Part shown: piece after piece, positions 41,075-45,992 of the stretch
How positions within the stretch are numbered: position 1 is the first letter of the stretch
How the letters are laid out: the number at the start of each line of letters is the position of its first letter
Assembly (NCBI GenBank): GCA_965202625.1
Contig: CBDBBI010000010.1
Span: 2,112,001 to 2,176,000 of the forward strand
DNA: 64,000 bases
Reading direction: 5' to 3'
Origin: a bacterium
GTDB taxonomy: Bacteria; UBA8248
Position numbers and translations under genes: made by a program
Notes under the pieces: model-generated
Databases searched by the model: none
The model's input: only the letters and a program-made list of their open reading frames with translations
What the model was told of the DNA's origin: nothing

Positions 41075-41115
41075 CTGGTCTCTCTCCTCCTCTGGTTCTG
41101 CGCTGCCCTTGGTAT

Positions 41116-42003
41116 TTACGCCTCGTCAATCGATTCGCCCTCGGTTTTCTCCATCTCCAGAATCTCCGCGCGCAGCAGCGTCGTCACGGGGCCGGGGGCG
41201 GGTATGGGGCGCGCGTCGACCTCCTGCACCGCGCACACCCGGCTGAACGATGAGGTGAGAAAGCACTCGTCCGCCGTGTAGAGGTCATAGAGCGTGAGGT
41301 CCGCCTCAGAGGCGGGAATCCCCTCGCGCGCGGCGATCTCCATCACCGCCCTTCGGGTGATGCCGTCGAGGGCGTTGTGGACGTGGGGCGTTTTCAGGGC
41401 GCCGTCCTTCACGAGAAAAACGTTCTCGCCTGGTGCCTCCGCCACGAAGCCGCCCGCGTCCAGAAGAATCGCCTCGTCATATCCCGCCTCCACGGCCTCG
41501 ATACGCGCCATCACGTTGTTGAGATAATTGAGCGACTTCACGCGCGCCTCCAGGGATGCGGACGGCACCTTGCGCACCGCCGCCGTCTTGAGGCGCAGCC
41601 CCGCACCCTTCGCGCGATAGCTCGCGCCCGTCTCGGGCGGCGGGGCGGGTGGGTGCAGCAGCACGGCGAGCGTCGCTTCTCCCGTCACCCTCGGATCGAG
41701 CAGGGGGTAGCCCGCTCCCCTGGAGACGACGAGGCGCAGATACACCTCGTCCACGCCCGACCTGCGCGCGCATTCCTTGACGATGTGCGCGATTCTCTCC
41801 CGGGGTTCGGGAAGGTCGATTTTGAGTGCGCGCGCGGAGTGTTCCATGCGGTCGAGATGCTCCCGGAAGCGGAAGATGCGCCGCCCCCTCAGCGTCATGG
41901 ATTCAAAGAGGCCGTCCCCGTAGAGAAACCCGTGATCAAAGGCGGAGACGCGCGCCTCGGAGGCGGGGACGTATGCGCCGTTCACGTAGCAGACGAGGGA
42001 CAT
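41116..42003 (-). CDS. class IV aminotransferase (IlvE-like)
   Basis: DHGFLYGDGLFE, KSLNY, LDGITR, ADECFLT. Confidence 0.92.
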   Translation of the reverse strand: MSLVCYVNGAYVPASEARVSAFDHGFLYGDGLFESMTLRGRRIFRFREHLDRMEHSARALKIDLPEPRERIAHIVKECARRSGVDEVYLRLVVSRGAGYPLLDPRVTGEATLAVLLHPPAPPPETGASYRAKGAGLRLKTAAVRKVPSASLEARVKSLNYLNNVMARIEAVEAGYDEAILLDAGGFVAEAPGENVFLVKDGALKTPHVHNALDGITRRAVMEIAAREGIPASEADLTLYDLYTADECFLTSSFSRVCAVQEVDARPIPAPGPVTTLLRAEILEMEKTEGESIDEA

Positions 42004-42014
42004 GGAGGTGCTCT

Positions 42015-42758
42015 CTAGATCGCGCACCAGCCGTCATCGACGATGAGGTCGAGGCCGTGTACCGCACTGGCGTCCTCGGAGGCGAGGAACACCGCCGCAC
42101 CCGCCATCTCGGCCGTCGATATGTAGGCCCGGCCCGTGGGGGTGTAGCTCGCCATGCGCTTCACGAACTCCGGGTCGTCCTGTAGGTGCTGGTTGAGGGG
42201 CGTGGCCGTGTTGCCCGGCGAGATGGAGTTCACGTTGATGCCGCACTTCGATATCTCCGCCGCAAGTGCGCGGGTGAGCATATAGACTCCGCCCTTGCTC
42301 GCACAGTAGGGCACCGCGTTGGGAAAGGCGTGGGTGGCGGCGATGGAGGCGACGAAGATGATCTTGCCGGCTTTCTTCTCCTTCATGATGGGCACGACCG
42401 CCTGGGCGAGCAGAAAGTTGCCCTTGAGGTTGACGTCGATGACGTCGTCCCATTCCTCCTCGGAATATCCCTCCAGCTCCTTGTTGATCATGATGCCCGC
42501 GTTTCCGACCAGGACGTCCACCGTCCCGAAGGCGGCCACCACGTCCGCCACCATCTCCTCCACGGCCGCCTTGCGGGATACGTCGCACGGAAACGCCCTG
42601 GCCGCCTCGCCGATCTCGGAGGCGAGGGCTTCTCCTTTCTCCGCAGTGCGGTTCACGATGGCCACGCGCGCACCCTCCTCCGCATAGCGGCGGCAGATGG
42701 CCGCACCGATTCCCTGCGAGCCGCCGGTGACGACAGCGACTTTCTCCTTCAGCCTCAT
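42015..42758 (-). CDS. SDR family oxidoreductase
   Basis: TGGSQGIG, NAG, YCASK. Confidence 0.93.
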   Translation of the reverse strand: MRLKEKVAVVTGGSQGIGAAICRRYAEEGARVAIVNRTAEKGEALASEIGEAARAFPCDVSRKAAVEEMVADVVAAFGTVDVLVGNAGIMINKELEGYSEEEWDDVIDVNLKGNFLLAQAVVPIMKEKKAGKIIFVASIAATHAFPNAVPYCASKGGVYMLTRALAAEISKCGINVNSISPGNTATPLNQHLQDDPEFVKRMASYTPTGRAYISTAEMAGAAVFLASEDASAVHGLDLIVDDGWCAI

Positions 42759-43105
42759 GGGCGTCTCCTCCCCTCGGGGCGTTCGGGCTTTTCTGAAAGC
42801 GAAAAATCTCCCGCCTGATGCAGTGTGCCGCACATGATACCCCCCTTTGGCCGTGAGGGGAAGGGGGAGGGAATTGCCCCGTTCTGTCTCGTGCTCGCCG
42901 CCCGGCATGGCATCTCCGGAGAACCTATTCCTTGTAAATGTCCCCTTAAAGGGCTTTATCCAGTCGATACGCCTTAAAATACTCCGATATTTAGGGTTAT
43001 TTTGCTCCGAAATTTCTATTGCGACCTCAATATATGGAGACTATATTTTTATGGATATCGGAAGCGTGAAGTTTGAGAGGTTCTCATTCATATTTGGAGG
43101 CTGCG

Positions 43106-44089
43106 ATGCGAATAGACCCGGAAACACTGAAGAAGCTGCGCAAGGCGAGGGGGCTCAGCCAGGAGATGCTGGCGGACGTATCGAGAGTCTCCAAGAAAAC
43201 CATCGCCAGAATAGAGACGGGAAAGGGGGGCGAGACGCGCGGAGGCACCGCCAAGGAGCTTGCCAAGGCCCTGAGCGTCAAGATCGAAGTCCTGACCGGA
43301 GAGCCTGGGACTGCGCACGGAAACATGGCGGAGGAGAGCTCCGACTTCCTGGCCGGGGAAGGCGTCTCCAGTCGAATTTTAGGCACCGCGTTCTATCGCC
43401 ACAGGATTACCCTCAGTGGCGAAGCTCTGCTCGCCTATGACCTGGTGAGGGAGCATTACCGCGTGGACATGCTGTCGCTCGTTCATGCGGCACCACTGCT
43501 CTTCACCCTTCTGGCGGAGATGAGCCTCGCCGACCGCCGCCGCCGAGCCGATGAAGTGAACGCAGCCTTGGAAGGAAAATTCCCGGAACACCTAGCACCC
43601 CTGAATTTGCATCATCTCTGGGATGAGTTGGTCTTCATCTCCTGGCGGGATATTTTTGCCCGTAATGTAGGAGATCCTGAATATAATGAAATGTTCGATG
43701 ATTGCTATCGAAACGAAGAGTATTTTGAAGAAAGGCGCAACCCTTTCTCCGATTTTTTGGGCCGGCTGGCGAAGGATATGGGCCCCCAGAACGACGCGAT
43801 TGATCCTGAGAAGATACATTTCGATGTGGAAGGGAGCGGATTCCTCCACAAGTTCTCTCTTTTCAATAAATTCCGGGAAAAACTCACGGGCGGTTCCTCT
43901 CGCGCCGACTGCGCCCTTGATGGCGGATATGCGCGCATCAGGAATATTCCCAGAGAGCTCATGCCCCCGCGGAGAGCAGACGAGGAAGACGAGGCCGCCG
44001 CCGCGCGCGTGAAGTGGCTGGAGGAGCGCATTCCGGACGAGGACTGGGAGGAGTATCAAACTCATAGGCTGGTCAAAATCGAATTCTAG
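43106..44089 (+). CDS. XRE-family HTH protein with a long unknown C-terminal region
   Basis: LKKLRKARGLSQEMLA...IARIETG...LAKAL; GGAGG RBS. Confidence 0.85.
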   Translation: MRIDPETLKKLRKARGLSQEMLADVSRVSKKTIARIETGKGGETRGGTAKELAKALSVKIEVLTGEPGTAHGNMAEESSDFLAGEGVSSRILGTAFYRHRITLSGEALLAYDLVREHYRVDMLSLVHAAPLLFTLLAEMSLADRRRRADEVNAALEGKFPEHLAPLNLHHLWDELVFISWRDIFARNVGDPEYNEMFDDCYRNEEYFEERRNPFSDFLGRLAKDMGPQNDAIDPEKIHFDVEGSGFLHKFSLFNKFREKLTGGSSRADCALDGGYARIRNIPRELMPPRRADEEDEAAAARVKWLEERIPDEDWEEYQTHRLVKIEF

Positions 44090-44116
44090 CAAATCTAAAT
44101 GAGGGAGGAAGCGAGA

Positions 44117-44458
44117 ATGCGTAAATTCCACCTGAACGTGACCAAACACGCCGAGGCGCGCATGAGTCAGCGAGGGGTGCGAAATAAGGGCGTCGCGTTG
44201 GTCTATCAACACGGGACGCAGATCGGCCCCTCCGAGTGGTTCATGAAACGCTCTGACGCTGCGCGTGAAATCCGGCAGCTGGAGCGCGACTTGGGGAGCG
44301 GGAACCAGCGATTCGAACCCGCTCTGAAGCGTAAGGTGCAGCGGCTTGAGCGTCTGAGGGGTCTCCAGGTCGTCGTTCAAGGCGACGCTTTGCTCACCTG
44401 CTATCGACCAAGCGAAGCGCATCAGCGTCGAGTGCGTCGCAGGGGGAGGAATACCTGA
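44117..44458 (+). CDS. DUF4258-like small protein, copy A1
   Basis: TKHAEARMSQRGV...LQVVV.GD.L.TC. Confidence 0.72.
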   Translation: MRKFHLNVTKHAEARMSQRGVRNKGVALVYQHGTQIGPSEWFMKRSDAAREIRQLERDLGSGNQRFEPALKRKVQRLERLRGLQVVVQGDALLTCYRPSEAHQRRVRRRGRNT

Positions 44459-45072
44459 TGTCTCCATTCCGCACGATTGAAATTGATTTCGACGTCCACA
44501 AAGCGATTGAGGCTCGACAAAATTTTGCCGATTCGCCGAATGATGTCTTGCGTCGTCTTTTGAGAATTGAAGATCGCGGTAGAGAAGCGCTGTCGGGCAA
44601 AGGCTTGACAGGGCGGGGGCCTTCTGAAAATTCCACAATCAGGAGGAGGGCGAACGATAAGCGCCGACCTGCGGGGAGCGCAAGTAAAAGAAAAAAAAGG
44701 CGCGTTAAAAAAAAGGGCGGTAGATATGCGGGCGGTGACGTAATTAGGGGCCAATTCCTGCATGTCCGCGCGAAACATCGTTTCGTTGAAGAAATGTCTC
44801 CGAGGGATGGGCTATCGTGGTGGGGCAAAGGAGGCTTGGAATTGCCCCATGGAACGAAGTTGCAGATGAGATATAACGGTCGCAAGTATACCGGCGTCAT
44901 CCATAATGGGGATTGGTTGGTGGAGGGCAGAGTGTATAAAAGTCCGTCACACGCAGCCGGTGGCGTTGCCGTCACTAAGAATGGGGGGAAAACTTCTCTT
45001 GACGGCTGGAGGTACTGGGAGGTTAAGCGCCCTTCTGATGAAAATTGGATTCCCATTGAAAAATTCCGCTAG
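44458..45072 (+). CDS. RAMA-domain protein with N-terminal ribbon-helix-like segment (B1)
   Basis: TIEIDFDV...SPNDVLRRLL at the N-terminus; SPS.AA.....DGWRYW at the C-terminus. Confidence 0.75.
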   Translation: MSPFRTIEIDFDVHKAIEARQNFADSPNDVLRRLLRIEDRGREALSGKGLTGRGPSENSTIRRRANDKRRPAGSASKRKKRRVKKKGGRYAGGDVIRGQFLHVRAKHRFVEEMSPRDGLSWWGKGGLELPHGTKLQMRYNGRKYTGVIHNGDWLVEGRVYKSPSHAAGGVAVTKNGGKTSLDGWRYWEVKRPSDENWIPIEKFR

Positions 45073-45626
45073 TCAGATGAGGACAAAAAAGTTCTTGGTA
45101 ATTCGTCCAACAAGGGAGGAATAGCGAATGTTGAAATTCCACCTGAACTTGACCGACCACGCCGAGGCGCGCATGAGCCAGCGAGGGGTGCGAAATAAAG
45201 ACGTCGCGTTGGTCTATCAACACGGGACGCAGATCGGCCCCTCCGAGTGGTTCATGAAAGACTCTGACGCTGCGCGTGAAATGGAAGGACGCCCTCCTGA
45301 GAGGGATGGGCGATCGTGGTGGGGGGAAGGCGTGGAGTTGCCCCATGGAACGAAGTTGCGGATGAAATACGGCCCTTGCGAGTATACCGGCGTCATCCAT
45401 AATGGCCATTGGTTGGTGGAGGGCAGAGAGTATGGAAGTCCGTCAGGCGCAGCCGGTGGTGTTGCCGTCACCAAGAAGGGGCAGAAAACTCATCTTGATG
45501 GCTGGATTTATTGGGAAGTGAAGCGCCCTTTTGACCAAGGTTGGGTTGTCATAAACAGATTGCGCTAGCCGGATGAGGACAAAAAAGTTCTTGGTAATTC
45601 GCCAAACTAGGGAGGAAGCGAGAATG
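45067..45626 (+). repeat. duplicated ~64-bp intergenic unit (45067-45130 and 45563-45626)
   Basis: CGCTAG..GATGAGGACAAAAAAGTTCTTGGTAATTCG...AGGGAGGAA..ATG occurs twice. Confidence 0.88.
45128..45568 (+). CDS. chimera of DUF4258-like N-half and RAMA domain (A2'/B2)
   Basis: First ~53 aa match A1/A3; the remainder matches the B1 C-terminus. Confidence 0.78.
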   Translation: MLKFHLNLTDHAEARMSQRGVRNKDVALVYQHGTQIGPSEWFMKDSDAAREMEGRPPERDGRSWWGEGVELPHGTKLRMKYGPCEYTGVIHNGHWLVEGREYGSPSGAAGGVAVTKKGQKTHLDGWIYWEVKRPFDQGWVVINRLR

Positions 45627-45992
45627 CGTAAATTCCACCTGAACGTGACCGAACACGCCGAGACGCGCATGAGCCAGCGAGGGGTGCGAGAGGAGGACGT
45701 CAAGTTGGTCTTGGATTACGGGACGCAGATCGGCCCCTCCGAGTGGTTCATGAAAGACTCCGACGTTGCGCGTGAAATGGAAAACATAAAGCGCGTGTTC
45801 CAGCAGCTGGAGGGCGACTTGGGGAGCGGGAAGCAGCTATTGGAACGCGCCCTGAAACGTAAAGCCCAACGGCTTGAGCGTCTGAGGGGTCTCCAGGTCG
45901 TCGTTGAAGGGGATGATATGATCACCTGCCTTCGACCAAGCGAGGCGCATCTGCGTCGCGTGCGCCGGGCGGGAAGGAGGCACCGCAGATGA
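45624..45992 (+). CDS. DUF4258-like small protein, copy A3
   Basis: TEHAETRMSQRGV; paralog of A1 with a short in-frame insertion. Confidence 0.72.
   Translation: MRKFHLNVTEHAETRMSQRGVREEDVKLVLDYGTQIGPSEWFMKDSDVAREMENIKRVFQQLEGDLGSGKQLLERALKRKAQRLERLRGLQVVVEGDDMITCLRPSEAHLRRVRRAGRRHRR

What the first reader, a model, noticed from the sequence alone, without database searches (positions are those of the whole stretch)
43106..45992. XRE-HTH + DUF4258-like + RAMA-domain module in a tandemly amplified array: candidate undescribed defence or toxin-antitoxin system
Seen: five co-oriented genes inserted between ordinary metabolic genes behind an AT-rich leader, in the order XRE, A1, B1, A2'/B2, A3. 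A1 and B1 are coupled by TGATG, and the intergenic unit is duplicated. The copies have diverged but all frames remain open. Known: DUF4258-like HAxxRMxQRG proteins are predicted RelE/BrnT-fold RNases, and RAMA domains are predicted readers of modified DNA found with restriction enzymes. Inference: a module with a sensor (RAMA), an RNase effector (A) and a regulator or antitoxin (XRE). I cannot match it to a named system.
Basis: partly seen in the sequence, partly recalled or inferred. Interest (0 to 1): 0.75.

Follow-up and report, generated by a model that had tools for sequence, protein, structure and literature searches.

The report
XRE–DUF4258-like toxin pair, locally amplified
A conserved two-gene module (a DNA-binding regulator plus a small predicted RNase toxin) has, in this strain lineage only, picked up an unrelated small DNA-binding gene and been tandemly duplicated, so it looks like a toxin-antitoxin pair with a passenger rather than a new three-part defence system.

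Summary
Five co-oriented ORFs (XRE, A1, B1, A2'/B2, A3) lie in a low-GC islet (about 0.50-0.58 against 0.67) between an SDR gene and a hydantoinase B gene. A1 and B1 overlap by TGATG, and the DNA repeats are 82-92% identical.

The three-part "sensor-effector-regulator" reading fails its own co-occurrence test. All 9 loci with close A relatives have the long XRE gene directly upstream, and none of the 25 fetched loci has B. Among 22 other same-genus genomes, A is in 8 and B in 5, and the two sets do not overlap.

The conserved unit is therefore XRE (HTH plus an unnamed helical C-domain of about 225 aa) followed by A. A is a DUF4258/Ntox49-like protein, predicted colicin-like BECR fold, with a helical-hairpin insert. 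This most likely works as an antitoxin-first type II toxin-antitoxin pair. No toxicity, RNase activity or binding is shown.

B (SeqA_N-like RHH plus a RAMA-like domain) belongs to a large family that mostly stands alone. It was captured here and amplified together with A.

A2'/B2 is an in-frame deletion chimera: an intact B2 exists in a database protein from another contig. Between two co-assembled haplotypes its dN/dS is about 1.6, so it is probably a decay product.

Verdict: new variant of a known kind, moderate interest.

The parts
42930..43105 (+). AT-rich leader with a sigma-70-like site (TTGCGA-17-TATATT, 43019-43047) and GGAGG before the XRE start
   Evidence: GC 0.48. Promoter-like scan found 3 sites against 1.6 expected, so this is weak. 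Leaders of 9 related loci are AT-rich and only loosely conserved.
43106..44089 (+). XRE: HTH_3 (residues 8-63), disordered linker (about 66-104), all-helical C-domain (105-326) with no Pfam family; proposed antitoxin/repressor
   Evidence: Directly upstream of A in 9 of 9 close loci.
44117..44458 (+). A1: DUF4258/Ntox49-like protein of 113 aa; proposed RNase toxin
44458..45072 (+). B1: SeqA_N-like RHH (5-37), basic linker, RAMA-like C-domain (about 120-204); start overlaps the A1 stop
45128..45568 (+). A2'/B2: in-frame deletion chimera (A residues 1 to about 52 joined to the B2 RAMA part); probably a decay product
   Evidence: Alignment. Intact B2-type protein P0033 from another contig. dN/dS 1.63 between haplotypes.
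45627..45992 (+). A3: full-length DUF4258-like protein of 121/122 aa, identical in the second haplotype
   Evidence: An RNA-library contig of 164 nt lies on 45740-45903 (weak).
44102..45978 (+). Tandem repeat structure: D1 (44102-44271, 45113-45282, 45609-45778), D2 (44832-45131, 45328-45627), D3 (44271-44450, 45799-45978)

Best explanation
The functional core is a two-gene, antitoxin-first, type II toxin-antitoxin-like module. XRE has an N-terminal HTH that would repress the AT-rich promoter and an undescribed helical C-domain that would bind and neutralise its partner. It is followed 27 nt later by A, a small DUF4258/Ntox49-like protein predicted to have the colicin-like BECR RNase fold, with a 40-residue helical hairpin inserted and an Arg-rich tail. 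In relatives this pair sits at the same SDR/hydantoinase intergenic site. In this strain lineage a gene of an unrelated, mostly free-standing family (B: RHH plus RAMA-like small DNA-binding protein) was captured directly behind A with overlapping stop/start. The A-B unit was then tandemly duplicated to A1-B1-A2-B2-A3. A deletion of about 0.5 kb fused the A2 N-terminus to the B2 C-terminus, and gene conversion mixes the A copies. Shown: the anatomy, the family assignments, XRE-A conservation, the lineage-specific presence of B, the chimera's origin. Inferred: toxicity and RNase activity of A, neutralisation by the XRE C-domain, autoregulation, and any role for B.
Confidence: 0.55

Rival explanations
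1. A different register: the array is three antitoxin-first pairs, XRE->A1, B1->A2 and B2->A3. Here the RHH domain of B serves as an alternative repressor/antitoxin for the next A copy. The deletion removed toxin A2 and the RHH of B2 together, leaving A3 covered in trans by XRE or B1.
For: The repeat unit is cyclic, so B-A is as valid a unit as A-B. Each A copy behind a B has its own GGGAGGAA SD after a 55-nt spacer. RHH proteins are classic antitoxins, and DUF4258 modules are listed as antitoxin-first (PMC11980606, passages). In 4 same-genus genomes B lies directly upstream of another gene, a pentapeptide-repeat membrane protein, i.e. as the first gene of a pair. In L026 a distant A-like gene adjoins a protein with a possibly similar N-terminus plus Mrr_N.
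Against: B and A do not co-occur outside this lineage. B genes in three plasmid records have no consistent partner. The L026 N-terminal similarity is weak (E 0.04 pairwise), and there the B-like gene is downstream of A. Loss of the B2 RHH was tolerated.
Confidence: 0.13
2. One reading: a three-component defence system in which RAMA (B) senses modified phage DNA, A is the RNase effector, and XRE is the regulator/antitoxin.
For: RAMA is predicted to read N6-adenine-methylated DNA and is fused to restriction nucleases (PMC4738411, passages). All 37 scanned B relatives weakly match the C-terminal part of the PADLOC candidate PDC-S14. A1 and B1 are translationally coupled. Distant short DUF4258-like genes lie beside ZorD-like, type I MTase-like and PDC-S37/Hhe-like genes.
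Against: The conserved XRE-A pair works without B in all 9 close loci. One B copy has lost its RHH and one A copy its C-terminal half. No PADLOC system model matches A.
Confidence: 0.08
3. A is not a toxin. XRE-A is a regulator plus a small nucleic-acid-binding or co-regulator protein (the Arg-rich tail and helical hairpin would give binding, not cleavage), and the array is a neutral product of unequal recombination.
For: The fold evidence for an RNase is weak. The insert and basic tail are atypical for DUF4258. Three A copies are tolerated behind a single XRE. There are no plasmid or phage homologues.
Against: H11, R15 and R19 are invariant in the 27-member A alignment, as expected for a catalytic site of the Ntox49 type. 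Tight two-gene linkage with a repressor-type protein in 9 of 9 loci is the TA pattern.
Confidence: 0.14
4. The whole islet is a decaying remnant, with pseudogene-like copies and no current function.
For: The chimera has dN/dS 1.63 and XRE 0.80. The only RNA evidence is one 164-nt contig in an RNA library.
Against: All five frames are open in two haplotypes that differ by about 9% in DNA across the islet. A1 0.34 and B1 0.54 indicate constraint, and A3 is identical in both. Strong SD sequences are kept.
Confidence: 0.08

Closest known systems
PF_DUF4258 / Ntox49 BECR-fold toxins of type II TA modules (Gerdes 2025, PMC11980606; Zhang et al. 2012, PMC3482391; 2026 preprint 10.64898/2026.08.28.747851)
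   Same: N-terminal HAxxRMxQRG-type helix with invariant His and Arg. A terminal strand pair of the type (V/I)VV..G..(I/L)T.Y. Antitoxin-first gene order. Small size.
   Different: A helical hairpin of about 40 residues is inserted between the strand pairs, and there is an Arg-rich C-terminal helix. The partner is a 300-340-aa XRE protein with an unnamed C-domain rather than a small antitoxin. Pfam scores are at or below threshold.
HTH-XRE antitoxins (HigA, HipB, MqsA-type) and C-protein/CapH-like repressors
   Different: A helical C-domain of about 225 residues without a Pfam family. It has 282 representatives at E<=0.001 in 1.84 billion proteins, and among 10 sampled, 8 are joined to one or two HTH domains.
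RAMA-domain proteins (Iyer, Zhang & Aravind 2016, PMC4738411), small SeqA_N+RAMA architecture
   Same: B has the RAMA-like C-domain (36 of 37 relatives at E<=0.001) and a SeqA_N-like N-terminus (18 of 37). The paper mentions fusion of RAMA to SeqA.
   Different: No nuclease or methylase is attached or adjacent. B1 has a basic linker of about 65 residues that is absent from most of the family. Scores are below Pfam's gathering threshold in the window's proteins.
PADLOC candidate PDC-S14
   Same: The RAMA-like part of B aligns to positions of about 200-260 of the 280-position model.
   Different: Only about a quarter of the model is matched, and E is 1e-5 to 4e-8. B is half the length and has a different N-terminus. 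Not a member.

Membership tests
Pfam PF14076 DUF4258 (= Ntox49, BECR fold) | Sequence match to the family profile at the gathering score | tested here: inconclusive
   A3 24.5 bits, A2' 15.7, A1 12.5, against a cut-off of 25; only profile positions 1-27 of 71 are matched. 20 of 27 relatives hit at E<=0.01, best 1.4e-5. Three relatives carry a precomputed PF14076 label.
Pfam PF14076 DUF4258 (= Ntox49, BECR fold) | BECR topology (N-terminal helices plus an antiparallel sheet) resembling colicin D/E5 | tested here: inconclusive
Pfam PF14076 DUF4258 (= Ntox49, BECR fold) | Conserved His and Lys/Arg (the signature listed for Ntox49) | tested here: met
   H11, R15 and R19 are invariant in 27 sequences. 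The signature is taken from PMC3482391 (passage).
Type II toxin-antitoxin module | Conserved adjacent gene pair of a DNA-binding protein and a small toxin in one operon | tested here: met
   9 of 9 close loci. 27-nt spacer and shared orientation.
Type II toxin-antitoxin module | The toxin arrests growth and the antitoxin binds and neutralises it | not testable with these tools
   Needs expression and binding assays.
Pfam PF18755 RAMA | Sequence match at the gathering score | tested here: inconclusive
   B1 25.8 bits and B2 part 17.3, against a cut-off of 35.2. 36 of 37 relatives at E<=0.001, best 6.6e-8. Many relatives carry a precomputed PF18755 label.
Pfam PF17206 SeqA_N (RHH-like) | Sequence match of the N-terminal 35 residues | tested here: inconclusive
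   B1 17.2 bits against a cut-off of 23. 18 of 37 relatives at E<=0.001. PDB SeqA 1xrx E 0.97.
Pfam PF01381 HTH_3 (XRE) | Sequence and fold match | tested here: met
Named anti-phage defence systems (PADLOC-DB 2.0) | Full-length matches of the component proteins to a system's models | tested here: not met
   XRE: HTH-only hits (capH, RmrA N-terminus). A1 and A3: 0 families. B: partial PDC-S14.
   B in 0 of 25 loci holding A relatives. Of 22 other same-genus genomes A is in 8 and B in 5, with no overlap. One further contig may hold both, judged only by the equal contig length recorded for P0002 and P0033.

The most novel reading that the evidence does not exclude
The capture of B is adaptive. 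The RHH+RAMA protein would be a second, DNA-modification-sensing regulator or antitoxin, translationally coupled to a colicin-like RNase. Foreign DNA, methylated or unmethylated, would titrate B and release A. The tandem, gene-converting A-B array would diversify specificities. That would make it a modular, RAMA-gated abortive-infection system built on an XRE-DUF4258 TA chassis whose XRE C-domain is itself a new antitoxin/sensor fold.
Probability: 0.08. Interest if true: 0.75.

Novelty: new variant of a known kind. Interest (0 to 1): 0.4.

Why it matters
A 2025 survey calls DUF4258 a BECR toxin family that is still undescribed (PMC11980606, passages). This locus defines a coherent subfamily with a helical insert and a fixed partner: an XRE protein with an unnamed C-domain of about 225 residues, which has 282 representatives at E<=0.001. 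That makes an easy TA pair to test and a candidate new antitoxin domain. The array also gives a clear view of how a TA module picks up a passenger gene, amplifies by unequal recombination, and decays through an in-frame chimera, with two haplotypes and an intact B2 for comparison. It also shows that neighbouring 'defence-like' domains in one genome need not form a system.

Tried and rejected
1. Complex prediction on XRE 98-327 plus A, each as an alignment, gave 'no answer' (score 0.01, mark 0.32). It counts neither for nor against binding. A+B was not tried because the cap is one job.

2. Fold of the XRE C-domain: Foldseek pdb and VIA-wide on the whole model returned only HTH matches.

3. ESM Atlas on XRE 98-327 gave a best score of 0.78, in the noise range.

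4. PDB sequence searches with the A profile and with B1 found nothing below E 0.06.

5. A in the plasmid and phage collections: no match at E<=0.001. B relative P0113: 5 plasmid records and 1 phage record, all under 40% identity, with no consistent neighbour in the three that were read.

6. hhalign of the XRE profile against the ORF upstream of the distant A-like gene in L026 gave probability 0.2%, so they are not related by this test.

7. The idea that contig C2 is a second genomic copy was rejected. It is collinear with window 27107-48594 at about 96-97.6% in the flanks, so it is a co-assembled strain haplotype.

8. Read laying joint 44052->45599 in X5: I read this as a C2-like allele aligning to the A3 leader, not as a collapsed XRE-A3 form. 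The same run shows the C2-specific joint 46000->42665. Parts of the stretch without cover in X4, X5 and X7 are not evidence.

9. Earlier-findings look-ups returned nothing.

10. Supplementary tables of PMC11980606 (Tables S1 and S2, which list DUF4258 modules and their antitoxins) could not be seen. They may already list XRE-type partners.
Full report
OBSERVATION

The five ORFs exist as described: XRE 43106-44089, A1 44117-44458, B1 44458-45072, A2'/B2 45128-45568 and A3 45627-45992, all on the + strand. For A1 and A3 an upstream ATG gives alternative starts at 44099 and 45573.

They lie between an SDR gene and a hydantoinase B gene, both on the - strand (adh_short 3e-63, Hydantoinase_B 5e-111). 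GC falls from 0.63-0.72 in the flanks to 0.48-0.58 across 42800-45950.

The A1 stop and B1 start overlap (TGATG). All four downstream genes are preceded by the same GGGAGGAA Shine-Dalgarno.

Direct repeats:
- Three copies of the A 5' half (170 nt, 89-92%).
- Two copies of the B 3' part plus the intergenic unit (300 nt, 82%).
- Two copies of the A 3' half (180 nt, 84%).

A weak sigma-70-like site lies in the AT-rich leader at 43019-43047. The scan found 3 sites against 1.6 expected, so this is only a pointer.

WHAT THE PROTEINS ARE

XRE
- It has a solid HTH_3 domain (48 bits).
- The AF2 model (pLDDT 81.5) shows the HTH (1-65), a disordered linker (about 66-104) and an all-helical domain (105-326).
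- No Pfam, NCBIfam or PADLOC model covers that domain.
- phmmer of residues 98-327 against 1.84 billion representatives finds 282 proteins at E<=0.001. Most are 300-330 aa with the domain at about 90-300; some are 400-450 aa.
- Of 10 sampled, 8 carry one or two XRE-type HTH domains and 2 short ones carry none.
- Structure searches returned only HTH matches, so the fold of the C-domain remains untested.

A
- It belongs to a small family: 28 proteins at E<=0.001 among 71 candidates, of which 3 are the window's own and 1 is from the second haplotype.
- Members are about 118-122 aa. H11, A12, R15, Q18 and R19 are invariant, there is a terminal strand pair, and the tail is Arg-rich.
- 20 of 27 members hit DUF4258 at E<=0.01, but only over the first 26 or so profile positions. 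The window's copies are at or below the gathering score.
- The AF2 model (pLDDT 82.3) is two helices, two short strands, a helical hairpin (45-86), two strands and a C-terminal helix. That is a BECR-like order of elements with an insert.
- From passages I read: Gerdes 2025 lists PF_DUF4258 as a BECR toxin family with antitoxin/toxin gene order and says it is undescribed (PMC11980606). A 2026 preprint equates it with Ntox49 in the colicin-like group. Zhang et al. 2012 give 'H, [KR]' as the Ntox49 signature, which fits the invariant residues of A.

B1
- It belongs to a large family: 444 proteins at E<=0.001 among 2032 candidates.
- Typical members are about 139 aa, with a strongly conserved N-terminal 35 residues and a C-terminal domain of about 90 residues.
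- Of 37 aligned members, 36 hit RAMA and 18 hit SeqA_N at E<=0.001.
- All 37 weakly hit the C-terminal quarter of PADLOC PDC-S14.
- B1 and four relatives have a long basic linker.
- RAMA was proposed as a reader of adenine-methylated DNA, and a fusion to SeqA is mentioned in PMC4738411 (passages).

THE CHIMERA

A2'/B2 aligns to A over its first 52 or so residues and to the B C-domain over the rest. Database protein P0033 (136 aa) has a normal B N-terminus joined to a C-domain almost identical to that of A2'/B2.

So an intact B2 exists or existed. The window's ORF is an in-frame deletion that removed the A2 C-terminal half and the B2 RHH.

A SECOND HAPLOTYPE

The assembly's 22.6-kb contig C2 is collinear with window 27107-48594, at about 96-97.6% identity in the flanks and about 91% over the islet. 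It carries the same five genes. I read it as a co-assembled strain variant, not a second copy.

A sponge metagenome run from another study (X5) contains the C2-specific junction.

Comparison of the window with C2:

| Gene | Protein identity | dN/dS |
|---|---|---|
| XRE | 69% | 0.80 |
| A1 | 90% | 0.34 |
| B1 | 88% | 0.54 |
| A2'/B2 chimera | 87% | 1.63 (26.5 non-synonymous against 4.5 synonymous differences) |
| A3 | identical | not defined |
| SDR (neighbour) | 99% | 0.09 |

The A2' part resembles A1 in the window but A3 in C2, which points to gene conversion. The chimera therefore shows no sign of purifying selection, and gene conversion also confounds this measure.

CO-OCCURRENCE

Pattern scans returned 13 genome loci and 12 metagenome loci with A relatives.
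- In the 9 loci with close relatives (L001-L007, L020, L021), an XRE homologue (E 1e-33 to 5e-75) ends 60-100 nt upstream of A.
- L009 has an HTH-bearing 313-aa ORF overlapping the A start. L008 has a weak C-domain match.
- L002-L004 have the same SDR and hydantoinase flanks as the window, so XRE-A is the older resident of this site.
- B was found in none of the 25 loci.

In the 51 genomes of the window's class, which are also all the genomes held for its phylum:
- A occurs in 8 of 22 other same-genus genomes and in one more distant genome.
- B occurs in 5 of the 22 (one of them weak) and in one more distant genome.
- The two sets do not overlap.

In four same-genus genomes B lies directly upstream of a pentapeptide-repeat membrane protein and next to SNase-like genes. 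In three plasmid records B has no constant neighbour.

MECHANISM

Most likely (0.55), XRE-A is an antitoxin-first type II TA-like pair:
- XRE represses the leader through its HTH.
- XRE neutralises A through its helical C-domain.
- A, when freed, cleaves RNA using the His/Arg site.

All of this is inference from family assignment and gene linkage. None of it is shown.

B was captured behind A and amplified with it. Whether it now acts on A is open. Rivals:
- A B->A register in which the RHH of B is an alternative antitoxin (0.13).
- A non-toxic regulatory pair (0.14).
- A decaying remnant (0.08).

Expression evidence is limited to one 164-nt contig from an RNA library lying on A3. This does not show transcription.

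NOVELTY AND VERDICT

My searches of the paper library for 'DUF4258' (14 papers) and 'Ntox49' (2 papers) found no experimental study of a DUF4258 TA pair and no mention of this XRE C-domain. Supplementary tables were not visible.

This is a new variant of a known kind: a DUF4258-like subfamily with an insert and a fixed long-XRE partner, locally elaborated by gene capture and tandem duplication. Interest is 0.40.

Noticed in passing
L032:19185-20042 (contig C2 of the same assembly): Behind A3 the second haplotype has a 180-bp copy of the SDR gene's 5' end (matching window 42665-42843 at 95.6%) and a low-GC 137-aa ORF on the - strand with no Pfam match. Both are absent from the window. The same junction appears in run X5.
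   Followed up: partly
L032:13925-14316: The second haplotype has about 390 extra bases with a 64-aa ORF (no Pfam match) between the tRNA-binding-domain gene and the aminotransferase gene, where the window has about 24 bases (41092-41116).
   Followed up: no
L012:1807-7052, L029, L030, L031, L027: Distant short DUF4258-like proteins (86-88 aa) sit between a ZorD-like SNF2 helicase (PADLOC ZorD, E 0) and a 593-aa protein with type I methyltransferase and specificity-subunit matches. This may be an undescribed accessory of a Zorya/RM-like island.
   Followed up: partly
L010:36-6410: A 115-aa DUF4258-like protein follows a 1558-aa PDC-S37/Hhe-like helicase (E 0) and precedes a 272-aa ORF that I did not identify.
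   Followed up: partly
L026:796-2133: A distant A-like gene (84 aa) is followed by a 150-aa protein with an Mrr_N domain (8.8e-10). Its first 33 residues weakly resemble B's N-terminus (E 0.04 pairwise). Some B-family members also carry Mrr_N.
   Followed up: partly
L038-L041 (same-genus genomes G020, G022, G014, G031): B homologues (164-185 aa) lie directly upstream of a 306-aa pentapeptide-repeat protein. In L038 SNase-like gene fragments flank the pair on both sides, which suggests a small inserted cassette.
   Followed up: partly
L002:5463-5995: At the same SDR/hydantoinase site, one relative has a further small convergent gene pair next to XRE-A. By eye it looks like a ParE-type toxin with a CopG/ParD-type antitoxin (not scanned). 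The site may be a hot spot for TA insertion.
   Followed up: no
window 43028-43041: An imperfect 14-bp palindrome (CTCAATATATGGAG) lies next to the predicted -10. Similar ACTCCGATAT and GGAGACTATAT words recur in some related leaders. It is a possible XRE operator but was not tested statistically.
   Followed up: no
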